DNA of 63,589 nt, filler included, from Collodictyon triciliatum (taxonomy: Eukaryota): assembly GCA_043381765.1 (NCBI GenBank). It is 7 parts of 7 records of this genome, joined end to end, with 100 filler letters (N's around TTAATTAATTAA, not from the genome) between each part and the next. Parts side by side here need not be neighbours in the genome. Positions count along the whole stretch, not along the records: positions 1 to 9,475 come from JBHJMP010002995.1; positions 9,576 to 19,062 come from JBHJMP010002996.1; positions 19,163 to 28,631 come from JBHJMP010002997.1; positions 28,732 to 38,203 come from JBHJMP010002998.1; positions 38,304 to 47,817 come from JBHJMP010003001.1; positions 47,918 to 57,374 come from JBHJMP010003004.1; 1 more part is not named here. One strand, given 5' to 3'. The notes below the pieces were generated by a model. The model searched no databases, was not told where the DNA came from, and saw nothing but the letters and a program-made list of their open reading frames with translations. Of this stretch, positions 199 through 54,929 are shown piece after piece (the stretch's first letter is position 1; each line of letters starts with the position of its first letter). A program made the position numbers and the translations under genes.

Positions 199-2728
199 AT
201 GGTTTCCTACGGCGTGGCAAAGGTCTTCACAGACAACGTGAGAAACCGCGCAACCTTTTTCAACTCCTTCTTGAGACCCTGTCTATTGTGCTCCACACCG
301 TTTGGCACTTTGGCATTTTTCTCGAATGAATGAAAGAATGCCGCTCATACTCGCTTCGACAGACTCTGGGGATGTTGCTTGCGCGACTGTGAACCATATG
401 ATTTTTTTCCTTTATTCGATTCAAAGTGGTGAACCATATGATTTCAATATGTTGATACTTAAACACCTGACGTTCTATGTTATGTTCTCATTTTTCTCTT
501 TACTCCCAGAACCCTTTTGTATTCTACCATCCTTTGTATTATCTTTTTTTAAAAAAAAACCCCCATGAAGTTCTCAACGTGCGTATTTCTTGTCACTAGA
601 CTGCTCGTATCAGCTGTATAGACTTCTCGGGCGATGGCGAATACGTTGTAACATGTAGCGAAGATGCTTCCATCCGCGTTTATAATGCCCTTCTGGGAAC
701 GTGAGAGGCTTTGTTTTTTTTTTTTTAATTTCAACCTATGGCTTCATCATCATTATCGCAGGACATAGACCTCATCATTCCGCCCATATCGTGAGAACTA
801 ATCTTTAAAGGAAAAAAAATCGTCGTTATATTTCTATTTTTGTGTGTGTTTTCATTTTTTTTTCTCTGGTAGTGCACGAACCACAATCTTCAGCAAAAAG
901 TACGGAGTCAACCTTGTAAAATGGACGCATCACAATTCGAGCGTAATCGTGTCTTCAAATAATCAGTGGGAGCGTAAGTTTCTTTTTTTATTTTAAGTAC
1001 TCTGAGTAATATTACCAGAATTTATAGCAAAATTTGCTTCATTTTTTGCTGTATCAAAACATTTCATTTCCCAAGATATGTAGTAATCGACTTATTATTT
1101 GATTTTATCCCAGCATTGAAATCACGCTTAATTGCATCATTTCCTTAATTATATTATTCAACATGATTGAATCTATTGAGCCGTCTCCCAAAACATTATC
1201 TTCGATATACATATTAATTCAATTGAATAAATGTTTTTTTTTACAAACTATCTTTTTTTATTTTTAACTACAGACTCCATTCGATACTTATCCCTCCATG
1301 ACAATCAGTATCTAAGACAGTTTACAGGCCACAGAGAAAAGTGAATTTTTCATCAGCTGATGCTTTTGATTTGGATGAGCATATATATATATATATATAT
1401 ATACTCATATTTTTTATTTAAAAAATAAGGGTTCTTTCTCTTCACTACAACCCGTCCAACGATACATTCATATCATCATCTGCAGACAAAACAGTCAGAT
1501 TGTGGGATATCCGGACTGAGTTGTGCCAGGTTATTGAGACAGAAGAACACCTCACTTAATATTATTATGAAAGAAATGGAATCATGGATGCCTCAATTTT
1601 TTCATATCACCCTTGCATGAGGACATAGTAGAGCATCTCTGTGTTCTTTTTGTCTTCATATGCGTCTCCTGCAACGCATTACTACTTTGAATCCGAGAGT
1701 GAATTTGCTCCATCTCTATGCAGGGACTCATCCACACACCGGGACAATCAGTCTCGGGCTTTGACCCATCCGGCACGGTTTTTGCCACTGCTGTCCACGA
1801 TTGTGTGCGCCTCTACGATGTTCGCTCGTGTGATAAGGTGCGTTATACTTGGTCATTGTCTCATGAACATACAAAGCACGCGAGTTGGTAGTTTGTATTG
1901 GGTGTATATGACTTTCTTTCGAATGGTCGCTAGCTAGTCAGACAGCGATGGGAAAATTGGTATGATGGTTAGTTTGTGTTCTATCAGATTGCTTCTAACG
2001 ATTGTTTTTATATATTTTTAATGAAATTGGAAATCTTTGAAGGGCCCCTTCTCGGTCTTTAATGTAAATGACAGCCAAACAAGTCAAATACACACCATCA
2101 AATTTTCTTTGGATGGAAAAATGTTACTAACAACTTCGGTGTCCGGATTGATTCGCGTTTTGGATGCATATGACGGAACACAAGTGAATATAACCTTTTT
2201 CTACTATCACCAGCATTTCTGTTGTGTTTATTCTTGTGGACTGCGTTTCTCGACCTCTTTTTTTTTTTTCAATCCCCATCACTTTTCTTATCCATCTTCC
2301 AAAACAGATTCAATCTATCAAGCAACCCATCGGAGCGGAGAGCTCTGCCAAGTTTGAATCCTCCTTCAGCCCCGACGGAAATTATGTGACTTCAGGTTGC
2401 GATAAATCATCATCGACAGAGACCTTTCGTCTTCTCGTTTTATCAGCACGATGCTCATCTCATACTTTCTTTTTGTTTTTCCTTCACCCTTATTTTACTT
2501 TATCCACATCTCATTTTAACGACAGGCTCGCCCACCGGTGCCGTCCATCTGTGGCTTGTTGAGAGCGGAGAGAAAGTTGCGGAGTGGAAGGCACATAACT
2601 CCGCCGCACTGTGTGTCCAGTGGAACCCTCGCAAGTGGATGTTTGCAAGCGCATGTCAGCACCTGGCTTTTTGGCTCCCCATGGAAAACTCATCGTTGTC
2701 CCACACTCGCGGGCGCAGCGGAATATAA
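199..2728 (+). CDS. WDR82: WD40 protein WDR82/Swd2 (COMPASS/CPF subunit), about 9 exons; an upstream exon may exist
   Basis: Spliced exons read VSYGVAKVFTDN / ISCIDFSGDGEYVVTCSED / IFSKKYGVNLVKWTH / SIRYLSLHDNQYLRQFTGH / DTFISSSADKTVRLWDIR / FDPSGTVFA..VRLYDVRSCDK-GPF / ESSFSPDG / VQWNPRKWMFASACQHLAFWLP. These follow WDR82 motif order; GT-AG junctions; TAA at 2726-2728. Confidence 0.93.
389..444 (-). mobile_element. 24-bp retro-insertion (LINE 3' end plus A-tail) with 16-bp TSD, in a WDR82 intron
   Basis: gtgaaccatatgattt at 389-404 and 429-444 flanks ttttcctttattcgattcaaagtg, which matches the LINE 3' terminus at 42817-42847. Confidence 0.85.
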
Positions 2729-3164
2729 ACATGAATAAGCTAAGACGGACCTGAAGGGATACATATTGTTGGTGTGTGTATATCTCTGTCTTTTCTCTCT
2801 TTCTTTCAATTTTTTCTTTCTTTCTTTGTGCTGCGATTCTCAGAATTATGATTCTTTTAAATATGGTTATGTTATGAGAGCAAGAAAGAGATAAGAAGGA
2901 GAGAGAGAGAGAAAATGGTAACAACTGGATGTGGTGTCATTTGCAAGCGCCCGATTAACACGTATTGTTTTTGTTGTTTTCTTTATATCTTTATTTCTGG
3001 CTTGGTTTGGATGCTGCAAACGAGGATTGATAGAGCCTTCTGAATCAAACCCCTGATTCTTTACGGTCAGCGGGTGGGATAGAAAGGAGCATGTCGAAAC
3101 GAATGTGCGAAAAGGAGAAATAAAAAAAAAAAGCAAAAGAAAAGAGGGGATGTCAGATTGCCAC

Positions 3165-3791
3165 TTATCGCGGTTGGTCAAGCGTTTGCGAGGAACTCTG
3201 GTTTGATGCGACAGTGAAGAGCACGGAAACGGGGTCGCTTAAGCACGGCCTTTTTCGAGGGCGAATGGGCTCCAGGTTTGCAGCAGATTCGGGCGAAGAG
3301 AAGACAGAGGATGAAACATTCGGAAAGATGGGTGCGTTTGGGACAAAAGAGGGACGTGTTGTCTGCTGCGTGAAGAGAGAAAAGGGCGACTGTGTTTGTT
3401 GTTGTGTTTGTTGTTGTGTTTGTGTTTGTGTTTGTGTTTGTTGCTGATACTGTTGGTGTTCTTGTGTTTGATACCGATGCTGTGTTTGTTGCGTTTGTTG
3501 ATGTTGTGTTTGTTGCTGGGAAAGAAGAACAATGTCTTCGCCAACTTCATCAAGCTGCTGCGCAATGTATGTTGTGAGCATGTGGACGGGGATGGACTCC
3601 CAGCGATTCAACTGGGCCAGGTGGACGATGTATTGGCGCAGTTGCGTGTATGCCTCTTGGAAGCCGAGTGCCGACTGCAGTTGCTGAGTGCGATGTCCTG
3701 TGCGGTAGAGCTGTGCGAGTGACGCTGCGGCTGCGCGGAAGGAATCGAGCAGTTGTTGTTCCGAGTCGCTCATGGTTGGCGTGTGATCCAT
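3165..3791 (-). CDS. Intronless Q-rich protein with HAPSTR1/C16orf72 (DUF4588)-like N-terminal helix
   Basis: LLDSFRAAAASLAQLYR...ALGFQEAY resembles the FxxAAxAVTxLYK...GYQ motif; followed by a Q/T tract and a basic RPRKRP motif. Confidence 0.65.
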   Translation of the reverse strand: MDHTPTMSDSEQQLLDSFRAAAASLAQLYRTGHRTQQLQSALGFQEAYTQLRQYIVHLAQLNRWESIPVHMLTTYIAQQLDEVGEDIVLLSQQQTQHQQTQQTQHRYQTQEHQQYQQQTQTQTQTQQQTQQQTQSPFSLFTQQTTRPSFVPNAPIFPNVSSSVFSSPESAANLEPIRPRKRPCLSDPVSVLFTVASNQSSSQTLDQPR

Positions 3792-3978
3792 ATCGTCGAC
3801 CTTCTTCCTGTTGTTTGTTATTTTTTTATTTATTTTTTGTGGTTTTTTTTTGATTTATTTTAATCTTTTTTTTTTTTGATTGTGATTGCTTTTGTGTTCT
3901 TGAGTTTTTTTTTATTTTTATTTTTATTTTTTTTTTTGGTTTATTGGGAGCAGAAAGATCGCCGCACAGACGGAAGGG

Positions 3979-5863
3979 ATGAACAAGGCCGACGAGGACG
4001 TTGGGCCGGAGAAGGCTTTGGAAGCAGAGAGGGAGGAGGGAGAAAAGAGCACGGAGATGGCGGAGGCGGAAGAACTCGAGGATGCCGAGGACTTTGAAGA
4101 CGCGGAGGAAGTCGAGGAGGAAGAAGACGAGGAAGACGCAGAGGACGAGGACGAAGCCGAGGACGAAGAAGGCGAAGGCGAGGGCGACGTGCATTTGACT
4201 GTGGTGGCCTTGAACGAAGATGCAGCGCCAGAGATAAAACCCGCTCTCAGAAAGGGCGTTGGCCGTGGCCGGAGAAAGCAGAATGCGACTGAGCCCGTCG
4301 CACCGTTGACTCTTGCGTCCGCCTCGCATGTCCCAACTATTCCGGTCTCCAGAGTCAAGAAACTTGCAAAGCTGGATCCTGTGCGTTTGCGTATTTTATC
4401 GGCTTATTGATGTATTGATGTATTGATGTATGGATTTATTTATTTATTTATTGTTTTCATGATGTATTTTTTTCATGTATTGTTTTATTGTTTTATTGTT
4501 TTATTGTTTTATTGTTTTATTGTTTTATTGTTTTATTGTTTTATTGTTTTATTGTTTTATTGTTTTATTGTTTTATTGTTTTATTGTTTTATCGTTTTAT
4601 CGTTTTATCGTTTTATCGTTTTATCGTTTTATTGTTTTATTGTTTTGTTTATTATTGATGTATTTATTGATGTATTGATTGATTGTTTTATTAATTTTTA
4701 TCTGTTATTATTTATTGATGTATTGATTGATTTATTGGTTGATTTATTGATTGATTTATTGATTGATTTATTGATTTTCGGTTTTATTTTATTATTGATG
4801 TATCGATTGATTGTTTTATTGATTTTTATCTAATTTTTATTGATTGATTGTTTTACTAATTTTTATCTATTATTTATTTATGAATTTATTTATTTATCGA
4901 TTGATTTATTGATTGTATTGATTTTCGGTTTTATTTTATTCTTCCTCTTAATTTGTGCAGATAGGGAGTTTTGGCTTGTTTATGTTGTTGTTTTTCTTGA
5001 AGCGAAACGTGCACTGCCCAAGTTCACCAAGAAATCAGACACATGATTCATCTTAATGCATCACATGTACAGGACACGCGCGTGGTAACGAATGATGCTG
5101 CATACCTTATAGCAAAGGCGTCGGTAGGTTACCCACGCACAGTCCGACTGTTTACTAACACTTTTTTTTCTTCTTTTTTCTACGATATTCACTTTCATGT
5201 TATGTGTCAAGAATCATCAGTGACCCATCATCTTCGAAAGACAGGCTGCATTCTTGCTGTAACCCTTTCATCGTCGAATACTTCACATCTGATGTAAACT
5301 TTTGCTTTGATTCGTCATTCGTAGGAGCTTTTCATCGAGAGGTTTGTGGGTGAGGCACAGAAGCACGCAATGCGGGAGAAAAGGAAAGGAGTTCATTATC
5401 GCCATCTAGGTACTATGGAAATCCTTCACTAATAGGTGTTGATTCATCGTATCCCGTTCGAATATACATATATACTTTGTGAATCTCCTTTTCATAAAAT
5501 TATTGCAGCTGCAACTGTGGCGCAGGACGACGCTCTCAGCTTCTTGGACGGTTAGATACTCCTTTGAAACAAATGCATCTTGAAGTTTATTCTTACTCAT
5601 AGAATCTCATGTCGTTAATCACGCTCTGATGCGATCAAATTCTTTCCTTTTGTATTTTCCTCTATATTTTTCTGTGAAGATGGTGCATAAGGACAAACTC
5701 ATCATTTATTTTGCACAGTATCTCTTGATGTAGCAAACTACCGCTCTTGACTATGAATTAACCCTTTTATGACCCACTCAACCTTGCAGAATTAATTCCT
5801 CAGCAACACACAAAAAAGCAACGCACCGCTTTGATTCAGCAGCTGCAAAAGTCTTCATCATAG
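3979..5863 (+). CDS. H2A-like histone-fold protein (POLE4/Dpb3/CHRAC1/NF-YC family) with acidic N-terminus, 5 exons
   Basis: Exons give IPVSRVKKLAKLDP / DTRVVTNDAAYLIAKAS / ELFIERFVGEAQKHAMREKRKGVHYRHL / AATVAQDDALSFLD / ELIP...; TAG at 5861-5863. Confidence 0.88.
4410..4940. repeat. AT-rich compound micro/minisatellite (ttttattg and ttgattta units) in intron 1 of the histone-fold gene
   Basis: Direct tandem repeats visible in the sequence. Confidence 0.9.
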
Positions 5864-6084
5864 TTTACAAAGATGCACTTATTCTAGGAGAAAACGAAAA
5901 AGAGAATTAATACGAACATAAACAAAACAACATAAACACACAATCATTCATCGGTCTACCCCATTTTTTGGCAACTGGCGTCCCAGTCCGCCAATTCATT
6001 TCATTATTTTTATGCCATACAGCATAGCCACCATTCAGTGATGTCCTTTCCAAGAATGACTTATTCTCTTTTTAAGACGAATTG

Positions 6085-9000
6085 TCAACGGCTCAACGAA
6101 ACGGAGCCGTTTGGATACAAACCTGCACAAAAAAAAAGTAGACATACAAATCAGAGACATAAAACACTTCAAAGGAAAAAAGATAGGGAAAAAAAAAAGA
6201 AAATCGAGGAGAAAGAAAAACAACGAAAAGAAGAAAGCATAGAAAGCATGTTGGGAAAATATACCTGCTTGCAAAAAAGTAACATCGCAAAGCTGCTCCT
6301 CTTTGTAAATCACTCTCGGATACGCGGTGGCAATTTTAAAGTCTGAACTGCGCAACTCCATCGCGATTCGTGCGTGAAGAGAGGAAAGGGTTTCCATGGG
6401 ATGCGCTTCGTGCCGGATTGTCCTGCCGTCAAAAAGCCGAACCTTTCATCGCATATGCGAACCGTCGTAGAAATAAAGAATCATTATTTCACATGGATAT
6501 CCGTAAAAGAAATCACCAAAGTTGACGGTGATAACATTAATAATAGTATTATGGACTGTGAAGGTGATCTAGTTATGTATATGTGCGGTTTGTAAGAATG
6601 TTTGTTTCTCTTTTGTGATTTTGTTTACTTGCACAACACACAACGCAGACGGGTCAGACGGACTCAAAGAGGATGGTTTCGATGTTTCTCTCTGTGATTC
6701 TTGCTTCTGTGATTCTTGCTTCTGTGCATGCGATGACAAAGGAGATACAGATGAAGTGTGCGTTTGTGGTTGCGATGATGTTGTTTTTGTAATAGCTATT
6801 TCTGGTACACTTGATGTCTCTGACTGCAGATTTCGCTTCTGTTTGATTTATAAATGTTATTGCCACACCACAAGAGAACAAGTCTTCGACATGTGCATGA
6901 AAGAGTTCATTGAAAAGAGATTCCCATGGGCAAAATAGATAACTCATCGAGGCAGAAGGGTTCCTTGCACCCATCATTACGAACGAGATTATATTTTTGA
7001 TTGATGTGCTGGTTTTAAATTCGCTTGGCTAGGAGCCTCAGACGATGAGACATTCTGCATAGAAGTATAAGAAGAACGGGCAATCGTGATTAAGTACACA
7101 CTTGCTTTTGGTTAGCTCTGTCTTCCTCCATTTGGCGTCGGATTCGCTCGCGGTGTGCGAGGTCTGCTTCTTTCTGCTTTCGTAATGATTCGAGCGTCTT
7201 CGCTTTCTCGGCATTAATTCTTTGACGCTCTGACTCATCATCAACTGCTTGCGCAGAGACTGGCAGTTCCGTAGAATTTCTACTTGGGGTTTTGGGCTCC
7301 TACAGAAAACCAAGAAACCTTAGAATACATCTTGGTCTTATTTGCCAGATCGACCTGTCTTTCTTAGGAGCATTTCGTTGTTGTAAATGAGATTCGTTCA
7401 ATGCACTTACGATATTGGCTTCACGCAGTCTAATGTAAAGACCAGAATAAGTTCGGGATGATGGAATAAATCCAAATGTCTTTTTTTTTAAAAAAAAATT
7501 CACTTCATTGTATATACCGATGCACAAACTTGATTCGCGGCGCAGATTCGTATAAGCGTTGTGAAGAAAAGTAATCAACAAGAACAGAGTCAGATATTTC
7601 TTGGTCGGCATCTCCATCACCGGAATGTTGGAAAATCCTTTGCAAGAGGTCAACAATATAAAAAAAAATAAGTAAGGATAAAAAAATTAAACTAGCAATC
7701 TTCCCAAATCAGGCGTGCTCATAGAGAAATAAAATCATCAGATGCGTACCAATCAACGCAGATATTTAAGTCAGAATTTTTCGTATGAACAACAGATTTC
7801 TGTGCAGCCAAGACAGAGAACCCCATTTTAACAAGCTCTTGAACCTTTGAAAAAAAATCATAAAAAATGTGAAAACACAATCGATAGAAAGTGGACGTTC
7901 TATTCGTTTCAATATGTATGACCACAACCGTGACTATGATATTTACCAGAGCAAAAAGCAAAATCGATAGAATATGGCGACCACTTGCAAAAAAGTAATC
8001 CATTCAGCGAGATTTCAAAGCAGTATTTTGAATTGAAGGAGGGGTGGGTGGTAAAATAACAGAGAGATACCTTCGGGTTACTGGCAACATCCAGTGGGTT
8101 AAATTCTCTTAAAACCCTTGAAAACTCTTTCAAACCAGTCTCATGAGAAAACTGGTCAGCCTGGTTCTGCGTTTCAAAAAGCATACCAGTCTGTTTGCAC
8201 TGAATAAATGATTTCTTCGGATAGACCTGGTTTATGCACAATCAAATTAAGATAATTGATATTTAAACATTTATTAAAATTTAAATATGAAAAATATCGG
8301 CAAAGATAATGGTGACTAATAATATATAGAAAAAAAAGCTGAAAACCGATTCGATCGGACGCTGCTCGCTTTTTTCCTGGAGAACAGTATGGCTACTTGT
8401 TGGATTGCCTGTTGGATTGCCTGTTGGATTGCCTGTTGGATTGCCTGTTGGATTGCCTGTTGGATTGCTTGTTGGATTGCTTGTTGGATTGCTTGTTGGA
8501 TTGCTTGTTAGATTAATTGTTGGATTGCTTGTTGGATTGCTTGTTGGATTGCTTGTTGGATTGCTTGTTGGATTGCTTGTTGGATTGCTTGTTAGATTAA
8601 TTGTTGGATTGCTTGTTGGTTTGCTTGTTGGATTGCTTGTAATAGCATCCTTCTTGAGTGGCTCCTGCGTGGGTATTGTCTTCAGAGGTAGTAAGCGAAG
8701 TTCCTTCTTCCTCTTTGCAATCATGTTCAGTCTTGTTTGAGAAAACTTTTCCAAAAGGACACTTCTGGACTCGCCCACCGAAGAATCGCCATCTAATGGA
8801 TTATATCGTTATCATCACACCAGAGATTTCTTACACTATTTGAAGCGCATGTGATAAACACGAACCAAAAGAACATACATTCTAGGGAAAGTTTTTCTTA
8901 CAGGCAAATCTTCATCAAGGAGATAAAGTGGTAATAAGGGTCAAGAATAAAAGTATAACGAATCATACAGCCAAGAACGTTTCCACGCAGCTTGTCACCG

Positions 9001-15333: not shown

Positions 15334-18865
<3,532 letters not shown>

Positions 18866-35254: not shown

Positions 35255-35358
<104 letters not shown>

Positions 35359-37804: not shown

Positions 37805-37867
<63 letters not shown>

Positions 37868-42816: not shown

Positions 42817-43695
42817 TTTTTTTTTCCCTTTATTCGATTCTAAGTGTAGCGAGGTTATGCCATACAAAGGGGCGGGATGGGAGCGGATGGGAGAGAGCAA
42901 ACGCGAGTAGGAGAAGACACTACCGTGGAGAGGGTAGCACTGGAAAGAAATCAGTGATAGCGAGCTGGTCAGGTGGGCGTCCCAACTGGTTGATTGGTTG
43001 CGTGGGTAGCAGGGGTTGGATGTGCTGTGGGAGATATCGCACGACACATTCCCACATCTCTCTTCGCTTGCGGTCAGAGTAGCGAAGAATGCGAGCGTGT
43101 TTCAGCAGGCTGTTCAGGAAGCTGTATTGCACGAGGCTTTCAAGCCGGGATACATCATTTTCTCGTTCAGGTGGATAACTGGAGCGAGAGAATGCACGCA
43201 CACTGCATAAGGCCCACAGCATATGTCCCCTTGTGACTGTCCAGAGTATCCTAGAGTCGTGGGTCATTTGGTATTGTGGGCCAAACATGATGTCTGACGC
43301 CCTGAGTCGGTTGGGAGCATAATCAAGCTCAGAGAGCATCTTGTGGGTCGATTCTGTCATTTTTTTGAGCAAGAGAGTACTTCACAAATGTGTGTTCGAT
43401 AGAGTCATCTCCGCTATGGCACATGGTGCATTCTGGAGAGGTCGCTGCTGCATGGACTACGCGCGCACCTATCCACAGCTCTCTGTTGGAGATATTGAGA
43501 AGTAGGGTGAGGTGTTTCGGGAGAAGCTGGGGAGGGGGGCTTGCGTCTCTGAATGAAAATCGTGCTTTTTTTGATTATGCAAAGTTCTTCTCTTCTTGGA
43601 TTATCACTTGTTTGAAGCACGAAGAAGCCGTCTCCTTCTCTCCACCCGGTGTTGCAACGGCCTCAGGCAAAGTATGCGCTCTTGTGATAACTTGA
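42817..43695 (-). mobile_element. 5'-truncated, decayed L1/Tx1-like non-LTR retrotransposon: ORF2 C-terminus, 3'UTR and A-tail
   Basis: LLPKHLTLLLNISNRELWIGARV...PECTMCHSGDDSIEHTFVKY is a zf-RVT-like CCHC knuckle with the last Cys as Tyr; one in-frame stop and a frameshift; ends AATAAAGGG(A)9. Confidence 0.82.
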
Positions 43696-44387
43696 GTATA
43701 TGTTAAATTTATATTAATTCAGCTCAAATACTTTTTAATTATTCATATCGATTAGGCTTAAAAAAATCAATGATATAACAATCTTGCATATTTTCCGCAT
43801 TAAATAACCCTCATATGGAAATCTACCCTAGCCACTTTCCTATTTTATACCAAATATCCTTAAGGAGAAATGTCACGAAATGAAATTCAGATGATTTTCT
43901 AAAAAAAAGGACGCGCAAAACCTCGTTGCCAACCCTGTGCATCCGCTCGCTTCCAAATCAGTCCAGTCGGGGCTTAGTTTTCCGGCTTTTTTCTTGCCAA
44001 GGCCCGGTAAAACACTAGAACTCGAGCTTCCACTGGGCAGTCTCTGGGAGCAACTTTCCATAGGCGGATGAGCCTTTGCCATAAACAAAATGTTTCTCGC
44101 CACACACAAGAGCAACCTACCTTTCGCCGGGCAGCCACACAAAGGAGCAGGCAGGTATATGTAGATGGAGTCATCTCTTGATTTCTGGGAGAAGACAGAC
44201 CTTGGACAACAACCACGTATCTCCACCCAACGCAGGAATATTCTAGTTGCCGGCGGCACACAAGCCGAAAGACAAATCCATGCGAAATTACCGCAAGGCA
44301 GCATCATGAATTACACCTTCGACTATAACCATCCAACTACATATTAATCAAAGTAAATACACACAACAGACATCCACACTAAGTGCA

Positions 44388-44927
44388 ATGGTCCCCCCTT
44401 CGTGTTTCGTTCTTCAAGTGTCGTCATACCTCCAGTCCATCACTTCGCGGCAGCCCCTTCACCAAACAGTATTTGATCAAGTATCTTCAGCTTGCAGAGA
44501 GACCTCTGTGAACAGTTTTCCAATAGTTCAAAGTGTCCTTTGTCTTCTTCACAGGGCTGAGGAGTACAACGTGACATCCTCAACAGTGATTACAAACTCG
44601 GTGTTGTACGTCCATCGCTTCCTCCGAACGACTCAATCACAGCTAACCGCAGAGAATGCTATCCCGATACTTACCATGGCCTTGTGCATCGCCAACAAGT
44701 TTTGCGAAGATACACCCTACGATAACAGAACATTCTCGCAGCTGTCTGGAATCCCTCTTAAGATATTAGGCCAGCTGGAGATATACTTCCTTAGTGCCCT
44801 TCGTTTTCGCCTTTCTGTCAATATTGAGAGCTATAAGCGTTTGCATGAGGCATTTAGCACCCCGATTGAAGTATCAACTCAACTCATTCTCTCATCTACC
44901 CAAGTGTCGCTTTCAAACTCGAAGTGA
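44388..44927 (+). CDS. PHO80/Pcl/cyclin-U family cyclin, intronless (copy 1)
   Basis: LYVHRFL...ALCIANKFCEDTPYDNRTFSQLSGIPLKILGQLEIYFLSALRFRLSV cyclin box. Confidence 0.9.
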   Translation: MVPPSCFVLQVSSYLQSITSRQPLHQTVFDQVSSACRETSVNSFPIVQSVLCLLHRAEEYNVTSSTVITNSVLYVHRFLRTTQSQLTAENAIPILTMALCIANKFCEDTPYDNRTFSQLSGIPLKILGQLEIYFLSALRFRLSVNIESYKRLHEAFSTPIEVSTQLILSSTQVSLSNSK

Positions 44928-46798
44928 GCCTACAAAATTCGATGAGATGGCGATAGTCATTATTTTTTTTTTCCGACGACTTCTTCAAACTCCTGGCATC
45001 ACTCCATGCACCTGTAAGGCTGGAGAGAGAAAGACCTATACTGCAGCCTTTACCTTCGGTAGCTCTTTACTTTGACCCTCAAAGATAACCATCTGCCAAC
45101 TCATAACCATGATCTTGTGATAGATAATGTTCTTGTTAGAGACATCAAACTCTCATGTCCAAGGGCTTCTTAATCGCGTGTAATTCCACAATAAAGTATT
45201 TGCTAGCCGAAGAGTGATACCTGCATTCTTTTTTTTCCGGGTAATGTCTATTTAACGCAATAGTATTGACCGTAGTCGTGTCGGGTTTGGATTCTATTAC
45301 TGCATCCCATAACCCAATTATACAAATATAGTGAAAGTAGCTCCACTAGTAGGTTATTGCGACACAAAAATTATGTAAGTAGAGAGTAAGGAAGTATTAC
45401 TCTGACTTAGCGAAGCACATAGTAATAATCTATACTTAAAAAGCGCTTCTCAGGGATATTTCACAGAAAAGTGAGAGCCTAACACCACCAGGAGTTGGTT
45501 TTTACTCCCAGGATGAAGGTAATATCAGAGGGAAAAACGGATCATCAGAAATAGTTGAATGTTTGCCACAAAGCCCTAGGGATTAAGTCAGACACGAATG
45601 ATAACGAATGATTCGAAAAATGAAAGTAAAAAAGGATCCATTAAAAAACCTAACATATCTAGCATCACTCAGCTGAAAGATGAACGAACCAGCGAGATTT
45701 GCGCGATTTTAGATAAAGTAATTTGTAATCGTGTTCATCTAGCGATTAAGTTGGATTCCAACATTGCTTCGAATGTGCTGTTGTGATGAAGGTATCCAAA
45801 TGACACCATTCATAGCCACGCGAATAACTAGAACCTTGCCGCATCTCAAACACTGGGTTTTGCGTTGCTTGTGCTTCATTTGGCGAGCTTCCACCTTTGG
45901 TGCCATCTTGGAATTATAAATTACCGTTTTCGTTAGAAAAGTAGACCGAGTTTCGATATATTTGTTTACAGCTTCAAAGATATTCCAAGAAACTTCGACG
46001 AAGGCTGACCAGATAAGAATTCTCGTACCCAGGGTACGACAAATAAGTCCAACAACAAAGTCTCATCCCAAAACACAAGAATTTCGTTGGAAGGAATGAC
46101 GCCAAGGAAAAGAAAAAAAAGGAGCACAATTCAGCAATTGATATCATCAAATACCACACAAAGAGAGCGTAGTATTTAAACAAAAAAATCGGTGTAGGGG
46201 CAAACATTATTTTGAAACCATTAAGGCAGTGAATACTATGTAACAAAGACGAGTATATACTCGATTTTCACGAAAGTAATAGCGGGCACGTATCAACCGC
46301 AAATTGTATTGCCGGGCGTAGCTCCATTCCTCCGGGTATTCTAGACACTTTTCCAAATTCGACCGCACGTTTTGCTGATTGCCATTATTTTACAGAAGTG
46401 AAGTAGAATGATATGAACCTGAATGTGGTGATGTGAAATCAAATCAAATCAAATCAAATCAAATCAAATCAAGATGGACTTGATGAGATTCTATATTTCC
46501 AATTGACCAAACATTTTCGTTTCTGATCCCTCGAGAGAAAGATTCCGCCTTCTGAGTGTCTAAACATCTTGAAGTTTGAATCGATAAAATATGAGAATAC
46601 TTATTCGAAACTTGCTGCGCGCAAGGGACCCTTATCGACTCGTTTATTCTCTATTTCTCAGCATCCAACAACCCATTTATGATTTTTTGTTCATGTATTA
46701 TTTCATTCATGCAATTCCCCCTCAATATACAAGAGGCGACCAGAAACTCTTAGAGTCGCATTTCTATACAGAGCAGTCTCTCCTAAAGTAACCAGGCC

Positions 46799-47341
46799 AT
46801 GTCTGCTCAGCCGCCTTCTTTTTTTGTGCTGCAAGTGGCCTCGTATCTGCAATCTATCACACTTCGCCAGTTGATTCAACAAACAGTGTTTGATGATGTG
46901 CTTGGCATTAATAAGAAGTCAAAGGCACCGGCGATCATCGTCCCAAATATTTCACAGCTTCTGCAGCGAGCTCAAGAGTACCAAGTTGCATCCCCGACAG
47001 TTGTCATACACTCTGTTCTCTATGTACACCGGTTTCTTCGAAGCACACATTCACAGCTGACAAATATAAATATCGTTCCCATGTTTACCACTGCATTGTG
47101 TATCGCAAACAAGTACTGCGAGGATATCCCTTACAACAATCACACCTTTTCACAACTTTCTGGAATCCCGCTGAAGATTTTGTCCAGACTCGAACTTCAC
47201 TTTGTTGGCGCCCTTCGTTTTCGACTCTACGTTAACAACGACAGTTTCCAACAACTATTTGATGTATTCCTTCCTCTATCGTACAGGGCAAAAGACCAGG
47301 AATATGTCGCACAGATAAACAAAGACTATCATACTTTTTAG
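46799..47341 (+). CDS. PHO80/Pcl/cyclin-U family cyclin, intronless (copy 2)
   Basis: LYVHRFL...ALCIANKYCEDIPYNNHTFSQLSGIPLKILSRLELHFVGALRFRLYV; colinear with copy 1. Confidence 0.9.
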   Translation: MSAQPPSFFVLQVASYLQSITLRQLIQQTVFDDVLGINKKSKAPAIIVPNISQLLQRAQEYQVASPTVVIHSVLYVHRFLRSTHSQLTNINIVPMFTTALCIANKYCEDIPYNNHTFSQLSGIPLKILSRLELHFVGALRFRLYVNNDSFQQLFDVFLPLSYRAKDQEYVAQINKDYHTF

Positions 47342-47560
47342 GCCGCCCTAACTCACATTATTGTGCCTACAAATCTTTTGTAAAAGCCTGCACATTCTTT
47401 CCCAAAGCCCAAACTTTTTCTATTAATCTATCTGATAACCTAGCTGGTTTTTTAGAGCCTGCAATAAAAGCAATCTTGTGTTTGAAATGAACTGATCCTT
47501 ATCATCATCGAACCTGTCAACACGATTCGGCTGTCATAGCTCTCTTTTGTCCTCTGGTTT

Positions 47561-47649
47561 ACACTTTTCATGTTTTTTCTTCTCTCCTTTATTAGATCCA
47601 AAGCGCAGCGAGGTTATGCCATACGAAGGGGCACACACTTTTCATGTTT
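47561..47649 (-). mobile_element. 59-bp retro-insertion of the LINE 3' end with perfect 15-bp TSD
   Basis: acacttttcatgttt at 47561-47575 and 47635-47649; the insert matches 42827-42873 at 41 of 47 positions by eye. Confidence 0.88.
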
Positions 47650-47817
47650 AAACAAATATTATCTGAGCCAATCGCCTCTCTGTACGGCCTTATCACTACC
47701 TATACAAGTAACAAAGAAACGAAGAATCTAAACTAAAACAAAAAACAAAAAACAAAAAACAAAAAACAAAAAACAAAAAACAAAAAACAAAAAACAAAAA
47801 ACAAAAAACAAAAAACA

Positions 47818-47917
47818 NNNNNNNNNNNNNNNNNNNNNNNNNNNNNNNNNNNNNNNNNNNNTTAATTAATTAANNNNNNNNNNNNNNNNNNNNNNNNNNN
47901 NNNNNNNNNNNNNNNNN
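47818..47917. other. Artificial contig linker
   Basis: 44N-TTAATTAATTAA-44N. Confidence 0.97.
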
Positions 47918-49560
47918 CGCTATATTCGGTGGTGTACTTGACTGATTCATTCTCTTTTCCTCGGGCGAGGCTTTATCTTCGACGGTTTCGATATTTTTTG
48001 GTGCGCCAGTGATTGCAGGATGAATAACCGGTGTTTTATGTTCACCTACGTTTCTTTTTCTTGGATAGGAAGGTGTTTCTCGCTGGGAGTCGCAAGAGTT
48101 TTGACAGCAGGTCTGCTCCCATAAACAGTACTTGAGTATAATTTGTCGTTCCCGAAGCTTCAAGGTGCTCATTTTCTTCTTCAGCGGAACTTTCTATGAT
48201 GAAGACGGGTTGGATGGACTGTTGTTAATCCAATCCCGAGTCTGGGACTTCTCTTCTTATGGATTGCGCAGTACTTGCTGAAGAAAGAGTCTCTTGGGTG
48301 GTTCCAGGAGCCATGACCTCTAAGGAGGCTAGTGGATGTGGTTTGCTGGGTGCCATTATGCTGTTTCCCGATTCTGTTACCGAGTTGGCTTGGGTTTCCC
48401 TTTCCTCGGCGTCCTCTCCATGATTTAAATGAGAGCTTGGTGAGATATAATCGACTTTGGGTGGCTGGTAATGTTGGAGGCTAGCGATGTTTCCTCCACT
48501 TGGAAAGAAGTGATTCAAATACTGATATTTCTTCCTCTGTGTTCACTGGTGAACTTGATGAAGCGCTTTCGGGAAAATCGCCTGGTGTTTCGTCCATTAT
48601 TTCGATATCCATTTCTTGATTTTGGGAGGCTCCTGAACCTTTTCCTTGATTATGACATCGAGCACTTCATCCACGGATGTCTTGTCGCGATTTCTCCCTC
48701 TGCCATTAAAGGACGACGCGTGTTGCCTTTGGCCTTGTTTGTGGGCTCTGGGCTTGTTTTGCACAGACGATTCCTGCACGGTTGGCCAGTCTTTAGCAAA
48801 AAGATCGGCTACTTTTGTGTTGAAGCCTGAGAAGCGAGTGGCGGTGTTTTGTTTGTCGGTGGCCGCTTGATTGGTGGGCATCGGCTTGGCAGCAGTAGCT
48901 GTTTTTTTTGTGGTTTGTGGTTTGACCTTGTGTGTCATTCCCTTCTTTGTTGGGGAGAGTTGATGGGATGTCAGACTCTTTGAGGGCGCGTATCTCCACG
49001 CGACAGCGTCTGCCATGAATGACGACAAAGGGAGGTATTTTCCTCATTTTTTCCTGTTCTTTGTCAAACGTAACGAGTGCACCATTCATACATATTCCTC
49101 CAGGCTTTGTCCAGCTGACTTTGATTGGGGTGAAGTATTCGCTGCAGGCCTTAAAAATATCAGTCCAGCTGACCCCCAGCGGTATGTTAGACAGGTGCGC
49201 AACCTTTGTGACAGTTTTTGCTGACATGGGAGTGTATTGGTGATTGAGGAGCTTAAACGACCCCTCCTTAATGAAGGTAGCTGCGTTTTCTTTTCATGGG
49301 AAGGCGATCCTGAGTCCAAGGGCAGGGTTGTCTACCATTAGAGTTACGTCCTTCTCGTAGCACTTTCGGCCTTCCATCACAGCCCGCAGTTGCTTGCACA
49401 TATTACTACGGTTTTCGAAAGAGAGAACGGGACATTGTTTGCCCCGAAGGCGGACAAAGCAGTCGTCTTTAAAGAGTTCGTTCACAATCGCACTTCTTTA
49501 TCGTGGTATGTCAGCCGCAAATGGTCGATCGGGAGGTTCCGTTTCCCGATGCAAGCTCGA
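47918..49560 (-). mobile_element. Decayed Tx1/L1-like ORF1 (RRM-type), with stops and frameshifts, running into the linker
   Basis: ORFs 49294..49485 and 48793..49227 share a frame across one stop: GLRIAFP*KENAATFIKEGSFKLLNHQYTPMSAKTVTKVAHLSNIPLGV...EYFTPIKVSW...NGALVTF...IPPFVVIHGRRCRV resembles Tx1 ORF1; a long low-complexity tail follows; no introns seen. Confidence 0.65.
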
Positions 49561-50334
49561 CCCTGCACGAGGCTGACTTTCGCCATAAAGCTCATGTCTC
49601 ACTGAAGTCCATCGATGGTTGAATTAAACAGGAAGTGACAATATCTGACCATAGAGGGTGAAAAGAATCCGGACTTGTGCCAGTTATGCACGCATTCATT
49701 GTGGCTACAGGCCAAACCGCAGGATGCAATTCCTTATTACCGACTACTTCTCTGCCACCCGGCCACCAAGTGGCGTCCATGCAAACGATGGCTAGCGACC
49801 CAAAGCCAGCATCTCCACCATCCTGCACAAAATTGAAAGGAAGAATTAAAAAAATGCACACATTCATTGTGTACGCTGGTGTGCATATGGCTTGTTGGCG
49901 CCATCATGGGTACTTTTTGGATCCAGATAATCGACTAGTACACCCACTTGACTAGAACAAAAGCAAACATGCAGAAAATCGTCTTTCTGGTTAGCTTATA
50001 TCTCTCATTCTTCTAGCCAGCGGGTATTGAAGAGCCAACCCAACACAAAAAAATTACACAGAATAGCATGAAAAATAAGAGGAAGAGGTGACGATATTGA
50101 CGATGATGATGATGATGACGATGATGATGATGAAATACCAAATAATCGATCTCATTATATACGTAAAAGATACACAGGTAAATGAAGAAATATAAACAGT
50201 CAAGACTTTTGTGTAATGAGTTCATTTAGAATGACAGGAATTCGATGGAAAGAGGAAGAGGAAAGGGAAACGGAAGAAGAAAGAGGTCACTGCTATTCCA
50301 GAAAAGATTTCTTTTTTCTGTGCTGCGGCCCAAG

Positions 50335-51087
50335 TCATGGGATATGATCGAACGCCTGTGCATCCCGACTGGAAGGGCAGCATGCGTGCGTGCGGAAGAT
50401 GGCCACAAGAAGAACGCCAAAGAAGGCACCGAGGAGCGCCGACAGCGGCAAAAGGGCGGCGAGACGGGGCAGCAACTGCGTGATTGCAAGCTGAGTGGCA
50501 AGGAGGGCGGCTGCGAGGAGGACTCGTGCAGCTGTGGCTGTGGCTGTGGCTGTGGCTGTGATTGTGGCTGTGGCTGTGGCTGTGGCGGGCGGTATGGGGG
50601 CCAGGACGACGCGGACGCAGCAGACGCAGGAGGGGAGGGCGCGCGCAAGGACGGAGCGCAGGACAGGGGGGAGGAAGATGTAGAGGGTGAAGACGGCGAG
50701 GGCTGCGAGGGTGCGGGCCGCGCGGTCGGACGAGAGGCTGCCGTCCTGCGCGTCGAGCACCAGGCCCAGCACAACGAGGCTGGCAAAGCCGCCGGCCACC
50801 CCGGCCACCTCGCAGAGCCCCGCCGCAGCCCCCGCCGCGCTGCCGTCGCCGCACTCGCCCGTGCCGAAGCACCCCAGCTGCACCGCCGTCTTCACGCGGT
50901 ACGCCTCGCCGCACACCTCGCAGGCCGCCGCGCTGTCCGGCCGCCCCCGCTGCTCCGCCCGCGCGCGCACCCACCGCTCCAGGCACGCCCCGTGCACGCC
51001 CCCGACGCTGCCGCGGCACCCGCACAGCCCCACCAGCACGCCCTCCCCGCCGCCTCCGCAGATCCGGCACTCCTCTGCGCCGTCCAT
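50335..51087 (-). CDS. MARCH-type RING-CH (RINGv) membrane E3 ubiquitin ligase, intronless
   Basis: CRIC...LCGCRGSVGGVHGACLERWV...CEVC (C4HC3), followed by several hydrophobic helices. Confidence 0.9.
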   Translation of the reverse strand: MDGAEECRICGGGGEGVLVGLCGCRGSVGGVHGACLERWVRARAEQRGRPDSAAACEVCGEAYRVKTAVQLGCFGTGECGDGSAAGAAAGLCEVAGVAGGFASLVVLGLVLDAQDGSLSSDRAARTLAALAVFTLYIFLPPVLRSVLARALPSCVCCVRVVLAPIPPATATATATITATATATATAARVLLAAALLATQLAITQLLPRLAALLPLSALLGAFFGVLLVAIFRTHACCPSSRDAQAFDHIP

Positions 51088-51189
51088 CGCCTGCCTCCCG
51101 CTGCCTTCTCTTCCGGGCGCCCTGCCTGCAAAGCTGTCTCCGTGTAAACGCGCTTAGTGCCTGTCCCCGAGTGTTCCGATCACTTTCCT

Positions 51190-51330
51190 CTCTGTTCTGA
51201 TCTCATTCCCTATGATCTGATCTCTTTCCTGTCTGTTCTGATCTCTTTCCTGTCTATTCTGATCTCTTTCCCTATTCTGATCTCTTTCCCTATCCTGATC
51301 TCTTTCCCTATGATCTGATATCATTCCCCC
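51190..51330. repeat. Pyrimidine-rich minisatellite (ctgatctctttccctat-like, 18-22-bp units) upstream of the MARCH gene
   Basis: About 7 degenerate tandem units. Confidence 0.85.
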
Positions 51331-52712
51331 CTTTCCGGTCAGATCCGATCAGAACTGTTTCTTTTCTGTCTTCTTTTTGCATTCAATCTGTTGGCGGTCG
51401 TCCTTGCTGACCGTCTCTTCGAGTCTCGTTCTGATCCCGCAGGCCTCGCAAAATAGGTCCTCCCGACGAATTCGGACTCGAGGTGGTGCCGACCCTGCCC
51501 ATGGATAAATACTCCTCCCCGTTGTTTGGTTGTTTCGAAGACACAGACTCCTGTACCCTTCCGTTTTTCTTTTTCTCTCTTCTCTTCTCTGTTGTTTACT
51601 TTCCTTTGCTTTCTCTTCCAGAGGGAAAAGTAAAACACCAAAAAGCTGGACATGCCTTCTAACCTCGCCCTTTCCGCGCACGTATTTTCTACCAAACACC
51701 AAACAAAAAGGCATCATGACGGCTCTATGTCCTCCTATGCAGAACGCCTACAATAAGGTATAGATTGAATGAGACGTAAAGAAACCCAGAGAACGCAATA
51801 TATCAAAAACATTTCATTTATTCCTTCCTGTACTGGAAGACTCAAAAACCATATTTTATTATAATTAATACTGATAAATAAAGAAATCGGTCTCCGTCGC
51901 ATGTAGGCTGCTTTGGAGGCTCAGGACTGCAACATCAAGTATTTCTTGCGATTTCCGAGTGCTTTCACTATTCGCAGACAAGTTTCACATCGTTATCAGA
52001 TAAACGTATGGGTTTTGGATTTAATAAGATGATTGGAACACCCTAATGTATACCCACATTTCATTATATCCTCTTTTTAAAGCTCTTACAACTGGCATTT
52101 TTTTTAACCCTCTATATTTTTTTCTAGACTGCATATTGTATTCACTGAATATTTAAATGAAATAGACAACAGCCGTGCAAGACTGTCTAACTGTGTGCCT
52201 TTGTTATCATTGTGCTATCTGCCAAGACTCCCGAGAAATCCAAAGTCGACACTCTTCAATTCATGCGGGTAGACAGAGAAGCTATGTCCCAACCAATGCG
52301 TGGGCGGCTCGAGAGATGAAATGAGTAATTACATTGTATGAAGAAAAACGATTTCTGTTTACAAGTAATAATCAGGGACATGATATACATCTTCTTGCAG
52401 ATTGCGCATTATCTTTTGATCAGACTTTGAATATATAAATAGATCAATAAAACATTTTTTCCCAACATAAGAGAGAAAAGAGAAGAGTAGTCGCCATTTT
52501 CACTTTTTTTTTCCCCATTATTTATAACATGAATAAAAATTACATGACTTGTACATATAATTTCATACCAATACCTTGGTCTTGTACATATTTATATATG
52601 CTTTCGATTTATTTTTATGTATTTATTAAAAATAAAAAGGGAGAAATGTATTAGAGGCTAGCATGTTTGGTAATCCTCTTGTTATTTCAGTCTGACATGT
52701 GTATCATTAATA

Positions 52713-54520
52713 TTAGCATGCCGAATTATGATAACAATAACAAAAATAAAAAGGTAAGACGATATCGTTGACTAAAGAAGATAAATAAATACCAAATGTA
52801 AATGGATCTCCTTTTCGAAGTTTGGATTTTAATGTTGGTTCCTTGTAAGAAATATATGATGCAGAAATCCTGGAGCTTTTATGTGATAACCCCTCCTCAC
52901 TTACTGAACCTGTGGAAAAACTCAGCCCGGGAATATCATCGTCCCTAATGTTCCTCAATAATGAACTTTTCACTGAAGAAAATTCCATGAAAATATTGGA
53001 ATCACATATGGCTCATACAGACTGATTAATTTATAGTATAATACCTTGTATTTCTTGCTTGCTTTCCCTTGGAGGCATTCTGAAGGTCATTTTCGTTTTC
53101 CTGTTTACAGAGCGAGCATTGTATATGATGACTTGAGGACGAAAAAACAAGATAAGATCGGTGTTCTCCTATGTTACTGAAGTCAACCTTATCCTTTTCC
53201 TTAGTTTTGAGATGCACCTTTCCTAGTTTTATTTTAAAAAATAAATAAATTGTACTCCAGGGAAAAAAAATTTTTTTCCTTTATTCGATTCAAAGTTACT
53301 CCAGGGAAAAATTAAAAGGTGATGTATATTAGACCAGAATTGCACAAACCGATTGGAATGTCTTCCTTTTCTCCTCTCCGAATTTCTAGTTGTTGTTTCC
53401 CCTTTAACATGAGGTAGAGATGGAAAAAATAAAATGAGAACTCTTGTGCAACTCTTAACTTTTAAATGTATTTCTGTATGAATCGTATGCGAATCACGAG
53501 GCGTAGTAAATGTGCAAGATATTTTATACTGTCACCTCAGAATCAAAGTTTGCACTAAAAATTTTGTCTCTTAGTGCTAATATTTCCGCTAGTGATGATT
53601 CTTGTAGTTCCTTGTTATATTTTGCATACAATCATAAAGATAATGTGCGATATAGTCACATGTACCCATACACCTGATATTAATTACATCGACTTTTAAA
53701 ATACGTGATGCTTTTTCACCAAAGATTGATTCTGAAGTTGTAGTCTGGCTAGTTGTTGCGCTATTTCTATATGGGAGAAGAAAAAAAAGATAAGGTGATT
53801 GGGAACATATGCCCATTTCTTTCGATTCACTTTGTAAATTATCGGTATTACCATGATTTTGCTGGAGATATTGCTTCTTTGCTGCAATCGAACAGGATTG
53901 TTCATATATTTTGGTATCAAGGAATGAAGAGATAGGATTAGAACTTTGAAGTAACCTACTCCCTTTATATTCGTGAATACCGTTCCCCACCTTCCTGCAA
54001 TTCTAAGTGAAGTCTAGCATTTTCAGCTTCCAGTTGATGTTCTCTCAGACTAATAGCATCTAATTGAATTAATACTCTTTTACAAAAATAAACCTTATCA
54101 TTTCATGAGTGAATAAAAAAAAATTGGTTGGTGGATCCCTTCATCTATGCAACTTAATTTCTCGACATCAGTATTGAAAGAAAATTAGGAGTTATGAAAT
54201 GAGAGTAGACGTCATTATTACCTACTGTCGCTGATAATGATAAGCAGTCACCTCTATTTGCTCCTTTCCTTGGGTGATTTGGCAGATATTGCATTCCCTC
54301 TTTTTTTCTTCTTCTTTTTCTGAACAGACCTCGGCCATACCGAAACAAAATGTTTTAATAGGTCACCATGAAAGAAAATTCTTTCATGCATGTGCTGATG
54401 GACTCACCCGTTTCTTTTGAGGCAGCATCCCTTTTGTATAATTACAGAGTTGGTATCTTTATGCACCCTGGACTGCGTTTCAAAATTGTATGCCGGATAA
54501 TGGTGCGGCCATGAATGCCC
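52713..54520 (-). CDS. Hypothetical multi-exon low-complexity/coiled-coil protein; boundaries uncertain
   Basis: Splice-bounded segments such as DAISLREHQLEAENARLHLELQE and MEFSSVKSSLLRNIRDDDIPGLSF; no family recognised. Confidence 0.35.
53253..53313 (-). mobile_element. ~26-bp retro-insertion of the LINE 3' end with ~17-bp TSD
   Basis: tactccaggg(a)ntt on both sides (A8 vs A5) of tttttttcctttattcgattcaaagt; core identical to the 405-428 insert. Confidence 0.85.
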
Positions 54521-54869
54521 ATAGACTCACCTTTTTCTCCCTACCGTTTATTAGTTTTTTTTTCACAATTTTTTAACGTCCACCTTTTCTTTCTTTTTTA
54601 AAAAAAAATATATATATAAAGTTTCTGTGTGTTTTAGCGTTTCGAGTGTCGTGAAGTCACGGTGCTGTGGGGGTAACAAACTGCGGTGTAGCCCCCAAAA
54701 AAAAAAAAGAACGAACGAGGCCGGCAAGGTACGATACTTATGAACCATACTTTCCACATTTAGATAATAGACAACAAAGGCTCTGTCTTTGCGCACATCT
54801 GCTCGTCTGATATTCGTGTGTCGCACCCTTCTCGGCGAAAAGGAATAGCCAGGATACCAAGGCAAACAC

Positions 54870-54929
54870 ACTACCACCGTTCTTTTTTTTTCTTCCTTTT
54901 ATTCGAATCAAAGAAACTACCACCACTCT
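54870..54929 (-). mobile_element. ~32-bp older retro-insertion of the LINE 3' end with degenerate 14-bp TSD
   Basis: actaccaccgttct and actaccaccactct flank (t)n-cttccttttattcgaatcaaagaa, 48 bp upstream of the BRF2-like ATG. Confidence 0.7.

What the first reader, a model, noticed from the sequence alone, without database searches (positions are those of the whole stretch)
389..54929. Family of ultra-short (24-59 bp) TSD-flanked retro-insertions copying only the tip of a LINE 3' end
Seen: the element-sense motif (CA)CTTTGAATCGAATAAAGG(A)n occurs at 405-428, 47576-47634, 53271-53296 and 54884-54915, each between 14-17-bp direct repeats, and at the 3' end of the ORF2 relic at 42817. Three of the four stop within ~3 nt of the same position, just past a possible mini-hairpin CTTTG-AATCGAA-TAAAG. 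Three inferred empty sites read TTT|A in element sense. Established: variable TSDs, an A-tail and TT/AA targets are hallmarks of target-primed reverse transcription by L1-type elements. Inference: either RT aborts at a fixed structural block or host restriction point, or a discrete ~20-nt micro-SINE is being mobilised. Four copies in ~63 kb of unrelated contigs suggests high genome-wide abundance that repeat finders would miss.
Basis: partly seen in the sequence, partly recalled or inferred. Interest (0 to 1): 0.75.

Follow-up and report, generated by a model that had tools for sequence, protein, structure and literature searches.

The report
Tiny LINE-tip insertions, sharp 18-base stop
In this unnamed eukaryote, a jumping gene (an L1-like LINE) has pasted only its last 18 or so bases plus a short A-tail into thousands of places, which shows that its copying step often halts at one fixed, very early point.

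Summary
Confirmed and extended genome-wide. All four window inserts sit between 14-16-bp direct repeats and copy the 3' tip of an L1-like LINE ('family A'). Exact tip counts in the 75-Mb assembly fall from 2268 (16 nt) to 1830 (18), 745 (20) and 507 (24). In 101 sites picked on the last 8 nt plus tail, 88 of 94 family copies carry at most 42 nt. Stops per base reach 0.31-0.35 at 18-19 nt against 0.03-0.05 further away. One tip sits inside a LINE copy whose six paralogues are empty. The inserts form a nested series, so they are not a discrete micro-SINE, and the hairpin is negligible (-0.3 kcal/mol). A SINE-like family C shares only the last 16-18 nt with A, so the stop coincides with the likely recognition element, but a spike in C itself is not shown. 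A second LINE (B) also leaves mostly <50-nt copies, with other modes. Best reading: copying aborts at the edge of the protein-held 3' tip. Main rival: the RNA was trimmed to that edge first. Earlier scan notes saw the same inserts elsewhere in this genome; in the summaries I saw, none gave genome-wide counts.

The parts
389..404 (.). Target-site duplication, left copy (16 bp) of insert 1
   Evidence: exact repeat with 429-444
405..428 (-). Insert 1: last 20 nt of LINE family A plus short A-tail
429..444 (.). Target-site duplication, right copy of insert 1
42817..43547 (-). 5'-truncated LINE family A copy (~730 bp): ORF2 C-terminal part (open frame 42920-43381), 93-nt 3' UTR ending in the tip, A-tail
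   Evidence: (91-93% identical to the best genomic copies); the longer copy L062 carries RVT_1 and zf-RVT
47561..47575 (.). Target-site duplication, left copy (15 bp) of insert 2
47576..47634 (-). Insert 2: last 47 nt of family A (older, several substitutions), 2 extra 5' bases, A/G-rich tail
47635..47649 (.). Target-site duplication, right copy of insert 2
53253..53267 (.). Target-site duplication, left copy (15 bp exact) of insert 3
53271..53296 (-). Insert 3: last 19 nt of family A plus A7 tail
53297..53311 (.). Target-site duplication, right copy of insert 3
54870..54883 (.). Target-site duplication, left copy (14 bp, 12 matching) of insert 4
54884..54915 (-). Insert 4: last 18 nt of family A (one substitution, one extra A), 2 extra 5' bases, tail
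54916..54929 (.). Target-site duplication, right copy of insert 4
49686..49871 (+).
17938..18022 (-).

Best explanation
What they are (shown, about 0.95): dead-on-arrival 5'-truncated copies made by target-primed reverse transcription of an L1-like LINE. The endonuclease nicks a loose TT|AA site, the nick primes on the RNA's short A-tail, a second nick about 15-18 bp away gives the duplication, and the cDNA is joined after only a few bases. Why they stop at 18-19 nt (inferred): the last 16-18 nt are the RNA element that the LINE protein holds at initiation. The enzyme copies what it already holds. Once that anchor has become RNA:cDNA duplex it must take in upstream RNA with no specific grip. 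About half of the complexes that reach this point fail and close the insertion. The rest stay fragile to about 45 nt and then become processive.
For: Spike: stops per base at risk are 0.03-0.04 at 10-15 nt, 0.09-0.11 at 16-17, 0.31 at 18, 0.35 at 19, 0.14 at 20, 0.03-0.05 at 21-40 and under 0.01 beyond; 40 of 86 copies of at most 40 nt end at 17-19 against 11.6 under a fitted geometric law, p = 1e-13. Genome-wide retention per 2 nt is 0.81, then 0.41, then 0.82, while 13 long copies anchored upstream differ at positions 19 and 20 in only 1 and 0 cases. Family C (~300 bp, 170 first-look candidates) is unrelated to A upstream but shares the last 16 nt exactly and 17 of the last 18: the shared stretch ends where the spike lies. 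Sharing of 3' ends by a SINE and a LINE is the published sign of specific 3'-end recognition (PMC3472496, passages). Human ORF2p holds 15 nt of single-stranded RNA ahead of about 5 primer-paired nt (PMC10830416, passages); here tails are short (5-9 in 34 of 45), so the tip itself would fill such a channel (inference by analogy). Top-strand nicking early, with premature second-strand synthesis as the route to 5' truncation, is proposed in PMC7617806 (passages). Family B shows the same two phases: 49 of 54 copies at most 52 nt, only 2 under 17 nt, hazard 0.004 beyond 52.
Against: Family C shares the tip but a spike in C is not shown: 63 of 128 C-type 18-nt matches extend to 22 nt, against about a third for A, and C's higher divergence (72-91% to the query) plus stray A tips could explain that loss; those loci were not inspected. 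Family B's modes lie elsewhere (42 nt in 7 of 42 TSD-flanked copies, 33 in 5, 24 in 4). Peak-class junctions are mostly blunt (20 of 33 without extra bases) and microhomology of 2 nt or more is not enriched (4 against 2.3 expected), which fits run-off from a short RNA equally well. A minor mode at 11-12 nt (8 of 94) is unexplained. No protein-RNA binding was measured. Five C-type copies in the 101-site sample were scored against A references and inflate the 16-18 bins (four at 16, one at 18).
Confidence: 0.45

Rival explanations
1. The RNA is shortened before copying. A host nuclease (5'-3' decay stopped by the bound LINE protein, or a site-specific or small-RNA-guided cut) leaves an 18-19-nt polyadenylated fragment still held by ORF2p, which is then copied to its end as a complete template. 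The scars would record host defence.
For: Junctions look like run-off: of 48 short copies with a perfect TSD, 18 are blunt, 12 share 1 nt and 13 carry 1-6 extra bases. TSDs are tight, 50 of 64 at 15-18 bp (detection needed at least 13). In human cells discrete TSDs and little microhomology mark full-length rather than truncated insertions (PMC11702581, passages). Family B has an exact stop at 42 nt, as a cut site would give.
Against: Longer truncated copies have equally tight TSDs, so tightness does not single out the peak class. One-base microhomology is mildly enriched in one count (17 of 35 against 10.3, p = 0.013) and not in another (13 of 33 against 10.4). No RNA data were available.
Confidence: 0.3
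2. A ruler on the DNA side: the complex jams after a fixed total cDNA length (about 25 nt with tail) because of the geometry of the nicked target, whatever the RNA sequence.
For: Tip length and tail length are weakly anti-correlated (Spearman -0.23, p = 0.13, 45 copies).
Against: Tip length alone is tighter than tip plus tail (variance 1.7 against 4.5 in 32 copies of 16-21 nt). Family B stops at other lengths with longer tails. Tails drift after insertion, so the test is weak.
Confidence: 0.1
3. The 5-bp mini-hairpin formed by positions 2-18 blocks the enzyme or lets the cDNA snap back.
For: The modal 5' base is the first base of the predicted stem. The main C variant breaks one pair of this register and lacks a clear spike. 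Stem-loops and bound SRP9/14 coincide with Alu truncation peaks (PMC4666360, passages).
Against: -0.3 kcal/mol, empty centroid structure, 75 of 200 shuffles fold as well. The cDNA of 18-24 nt plus tail has no predicted fold. A protein-stabilised stem-loop as the recognition element is not excluded and belongs to the best explanation.
Confidence: 0.08
4. A discrete ~20-nt micro-SINE with its own master locus is mobilised.
For: Half of the short copies begin within two bases; family C shows that other RNAs ending in this tip are mobilised.
Against: 5' ends form a nested series (11, 14-21, 28-35 nt and longer) that continues the LINE sequence. Extra 5' bases are heterogeneous and only 1 of 13 is a single G, so there is no cap signature and no shared leader. 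Eighteen bases cannot hold an internal Pol III promoter (established knowledge).
Confidence: 0.05
5. Ordinary random 5' truncation, with the peak made by motif-based ascertainment, assembly or selection against long copies.
For: The assembly is fragmented (14,576 contigs) and long copies are often cut at contig ends, so the short-to-long ratio is probably overstated.
Against: The sample was anchored on the last 8 nt only, so 10-17-nt copies could be seen and are the minority. Neither assembly nor selection can favour 18-19 over 13-17 and 21-25 nt. A motif-free scan of about 400 kb of fetched loci (chosen by motif) found 48 A-tailed TSD-flanked inserts, 44 classed as this tip and none a bare A-run.
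Confidence: 0.02

Closest known systems
5'-truncated insertions of human LINE-1 made by target-primed reverse transcription (PMC7617806, PMC10830416, PMC11702581; passages read)
   Same: APE endonuclease + RT + C-terminal zinc knuckle; best solved-structure match of the related ORF2 in L164 is human L1 ORF2p, E 7e-45; TT|AA-type target, TSDs within 7-20 nt, A-tail.
   Different: About nine in ten sampled copies carry under 45 nt and over a third end at one of two adjacent bases; tails are only 5-9 A; a specific 3' tip is shared with a non-autonomous family.
Alu 5'-truncation peaks at stem-loops and SRP9/14 sites (PMC4666360; passages read)
   Same: Non-random truncation points explained by RNA structure or bound protein; little microhomology.
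   Different: In Alu about 16% of copies are truncated, near 45 and 170 nt from the 5' end. Here truncation is the main outcome, 18-19 nt from the 3' end, in the autonomous element itself.
Stringent SINE/LINE pairs of the L1 clade, e.g. Chlamydomonas SINEX-3_CR with L1-1_CR (PMC3472496; passages read)
   Same: A non-autonomous family (C) shares its 3' end with an L1-type LINE and both end in A.
   Different: The shared end is 16-18 nt here against about 80 nt; no compensatory stem changes shown; C's tRNA origin is not confirmed.

Membership tests
L1-like LINE (parent, family A) | APE endonuclease N-terminal to the RT | tested here: met
   Exo_endo_phos + RVT_1 in the ORF of L164 (RT 80% identical to family A); endonuclease-like stretch upstream of linker and RT in family-A copies L172 and L159
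L1-like LINE (parent, family A) | RT followed by C-terminal zinc knuckle | tested here: met
   RVT_1 E 3e-17 and zf-RVT E 2e-7 in L062
L1-like LINE (parent, family A) | A-tail, variable 7-20-bp TSD, TT|AA-type target | tested here: met
   TSD 13-19 bp in 63 of 64 perfect cases; T at -1 in 29 of 45 and at -2 in 25 of 45, A at +1 in 38 of 45 (absence of A at -1 is partly forced by the method)
L1-like LINE (parent, family A) | Single-copy empty target before insertion | tested here: met
   Tip inside LINE copy L172: six other distinct copies carry the 16-mer once; empty paralogues also for L115 and L212 (two further hits there were low-complexity or poor)
L1-like LINE (parent, family A) | ORF1 and RT phylogeny placing it in the L1 rather than Tx1 or another clade | not tested
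   No full-length copy retrieved; the named protein search found nothing; no tree built
SINE (for the 18-nt inserts) | Small-RNA-derived head with Pol III promoter | tested here: not met
   The inserts consist wholly of LINE 3' sequence plus 0-6 extra bases in the short class
SINE (for the 18-nt inserts) | Discrete unit with one 5' end | tested here: not met
   Nested lengths from 11 nt upward with a spike
tRNA-derived SINE (for family C) | tRNA-related 5' head | tested here: inconclusive
   A- and B-box-like words about 40 nt apart near a start shared by three copies (box consensus recalled, from no call); ARAGORN found no tRNA in 6 loci and Rfam gave no tRNA match in 16 loci
tRNA-derived SINE (for family C) | 3' end shared with a partner LINE | tested here: met
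   Last 16 nt identical, 17 of last 18
Stringent-type LINE | 3' UTR element required for retroposition | not testable with these tools
   Needs a retrotransposition or in vitro assay
Stringent-type LINE | Conserved 3' stem-loop with compensatory changes | tested here: inconclusive
   Weak stem in A; the main C variant breaks that register but one C copy folds in another; no covariation count made

The most novel reading that the evidence does not exclude
The thousands of scars are a genomic footprint of a discrete checkpoint in target-primed reverse transcription. An 18-nt 3' RNA element is both the whole recognition signal of this LINE (enough to mobilise a SINE-like RNA) and the exact point where copying is stopped, by the enzyme's own initiation-to-elongation switch or by a host nuclease that trims LINE RNA down to the protein-protected tip, so that most retrotransposition events end as 25-bp duds.
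Probability: 0.45. Interest if true: 0.8.

Novelty: new variant of a known kind. Interest (0 to 1): 0.6.

Why it matters
The cause of 5' truncation of LINEs is an open question (PMC4859970, passages). Here one family supplies on the order of two thousand natural events with a base-precise mode, a second LINE with other modes, and a SINE-like family sharing only the tip. That makes enzyme abort versus RNA trimming testable with a short RNA and one protein. An 18-nt cis signal would be very small for specific 3'-end recognition and of use for RNA-templated gene insertion. Each event adds about 40 bp including an AATAAA word and is too short for usual repeat annotation (inference), so such scars may be overlooked in other genomes.

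Tried and rejected
Empty alleles in reads: six runs listed, none on record as RNA, best share 0.23 (no RNA holder listed). Four laid on window 47918-57374 covered mostly repeated parts, and no listed piece or joint bridged the two inserts (tables cut), so polymorphism is untested. Metagenome scan of tip plus tail: 2 matches, one long family-A 3' end (L284) and one without evident TSD or upstream homology; no independent sample of short copies. Named homologue search with the RT among longer proteins: nothing. Periodicity of family B lengths (about 9-10 nt): p = 0.03 against a smooth null but 0.42 when spikes are moved at random, so rejected. Cleavage of the cDNA by the element's own endonuclease: the best target-like site would give 14 nt, seen in 3 of 55, rejected. 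Cap-derived G: 1 of 13, rejected. Excess microhomology in longer A copies (5 of 9 against 1.2) is biased by how classes were defined and is not used. Family C first looked like a long element; its upstream extension proved to be a separate 2.5-kb repeat. Motif-free scan of 210 kb chosen blind (20 contig stretches plus the window) gave only 7 non-tandem-like family inserts, too few for a distribution. Literature: ten searches returned no paper describing a LINE whose copies are mostly an 18-nt tip; most were seen as listings only and the library lacks most subscription journals and Repbase. Earlier-findings look-ups by words and by relatives returned nothing outside this genome.
Full report
Setting. 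The window is seven contig pieces joined by N spacers from a 75.4-Mb, 14,576-contig eukaryotic assembly, G000. Pfam hits for presenilin, cyclins, an HMG box and a kinase show a eukaryote; I did not determine the lineage.

Observation. The 18-nt motif has 7 window matches at up to 3 mismatches against 0.21 expected. The four short copies lie between direct repeats of 16, 15, 15 and 14 bp (the last 12 of 14) and carry 20, 47, 19 and 18 nt of the element. The fifth ends a 730-bp relic at 42817-43547.

Parent element. The relic has 1302 first-look candidates in G000, the best 89-94% identical. Copy L062 carries an RT and a zinc knuckle followed by a 93-nt 3' UTR ending in the tip. A related ORF2 in L164 has endonuclease and RT domains and matches human L1 ORF2p best among solved structures. 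Family-A copies L172 and L159 have an endonuclease-like stretch ahead of the RT. The parent is an L1-like LINE; its exact clade and ORF1 were not tested.

True insertions. One 18-nt tip lies inside the RT region of LINE copy L172 between two copies of a 16-mer that six other distinct LINE copies hold once. Paralogues lacking the insert were also seen for L115 and L212 among 203 sites queried.

Genome-wide test. Exact matches to the last 16, 18, 20 and 24 nt number 2268, 1830, 745 and 507, controls 0. Retention per 2 nt is 0.81, 0.41 and 0.82. Long copies are conserved at positions 19-20 (1 and 0 differences in 13), so the drop is truncation, not divergence. To avoid motif bias I anchored on the last 8 nt plus tail: 2364 matches, control 103. 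I examined the first 100 listed places plus one bystander. Of these 101, 94 match the family for at least 10 nt, 88 of the 94 for at most 42 nt, 34 end at 18-19 nt, and 55 of 101 have a TSD scoring 12 or more against 1 of 300 shuffled pairs. The chance of stopping per base is 0.31-0.35 at 18-19 nt, 0.09-0.14 at 16, 17 and 20, 0.03-0.05 at 10-15 and 21-40, and under 0.01 beyond. A geometric law is rejected (40 of 86 at 17-19 against 11.6, p = 1e-13). Caveats: five family-C copies inflate the 16-18 bins; long copies are cut at contig ends and probably under-counted; the sample comes from the first 213 contigs. Scaling gives roughly 2000 short copies with this exact 14-mer (my estimate).

Junctions. 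Among 64 sites with a perfect TSD of at least 13 bp (of 168 scanned), 50 are 15-18 bp. Of 48 short copies, 18 are blunt, 12 share one base, 5 share two or more and 13 carry 1-6 extra bases, one of them a lone G. One-base overlap is mildly enriched in that count (p = 0.013) but not in a second. Tails are 5-9 nt in 34 of 45. Tip length is tighter than tip plus tail, so the stop is tied to the RNA sequence more than to total cDNA length.

Two other families. Family B (1082 matches of a 14-mer, control 10) is a second LINE with a zinc-knuckle C-terminus 41% identical to A's (the Pfam score just under the cut-off). Of 54 sites, 49 carry at most 52 nt and only 2 fewer than 17; exact modes lie at 42, 33 and 24 nt. 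Family C is a ~300-bp element unrelated to A except for the last 16-18 nt. Its head has A- and B-box-like words (consensus recalled), but ARAGORN and Rfam do not call a tRNA. C also leaves short copies: 28 of 30 loci selected on a 21-letter pattern match for at most 82 nt. Whether C has the 18-nt spike is unsettled: 63 of 128 extend to 22 nt, a loss that divergence could largely explain.

Mechanism. Shown: target-primed insertion of nested LINE 3' ends with a sharp mode. Inferred: the stretch that A shares with C, which by published precedent marks the recognition signal (PMC3472496, passages), ends exactly at the mode. Human ORF2p holds about 15 nt of single-stranded RNA ahead of about 5 paired nt (PMC10830416, passages), and early top-strand nicking allows premature closure (PMC7617806, passages). 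I therefore favour abort at the edge of the protein-held tip (0.45). RNA trimmed or cut to that edge before copying fits the blunt junctions equally and is the main rival (0.3). A free hairpin is too weak, though the mode is the first base of its stem. A discrete micro-SINE and ordinary random truncation are contradicted.

Comparison. It works like human L1 5' truncation and resembles the protein- or structure-linked peaks of Alu truncation (PMC4666360, passages), but differs in that truncation within 45 nt is the main outcome and has a two-base mode. In vitro R2 products showed no preferred truncation points (PMC13000458, passages). Ten literature searches found no description of such a family; the library is incomplete and I read no supplements. 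Earlier notes of this scan report the same inserts in other pieces of this genome; one says the genome-wide test was not done. I saw only their short summaries.

Verdict. Real, abundant and sharply non-random; a new variant of a known process rather than a new class of element. Interest 0.6.

Noticed in passing
L150:611-3133, L122, L050, L212, L084, L101, L092, L066: An abundant ~2.5-kb repeat with a shared end and broken frames encoding a Fanzor1-like protein (piece from L122 matches solved Fanzor1 structures, E 5e-12).
   Followed up: partly
L258, L267, L268, L270, L272, L273: Six family-C copies begin directly at one end of the Fanzor-like repeat, with different sequence after the tail in four of them; one amplified composite or repeated targeting.
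   Followed up: partly
L147:1840-3200; family tips: Families A, B and C, and a possible fourth short A-tailed insert in L147, share the word TTGAA 14-16 nt before the tail.
   Followed up: partly
L053, L106: Two A tips carry 18-20 nt of foreign sequence, both ending in a T-run, between the TSD and the tip; template jump or captured RNA.
   Followed up: no
sample: Minor mode of family A at 11-12 nt (8 of 94), unexplained.
   Followed up: no
window 4934-4951 (-): Worn family-B-like tip next to an 8-nt tandem array.
   Followed up: no
window 44310-44927 and 46787-47341: Two nearby cyclin-domain frames, possibly a local duplication.
   Followed up: no
L159:2700-3701: Frame that reads like an LTR-retrotransposon integrase beside a family-A LINE (by eye, not scanned).
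   Followed up: no
L284: A public metagenome contig holds a family-A 3' end nearly identical to the window's relic.
   Followed up: partly
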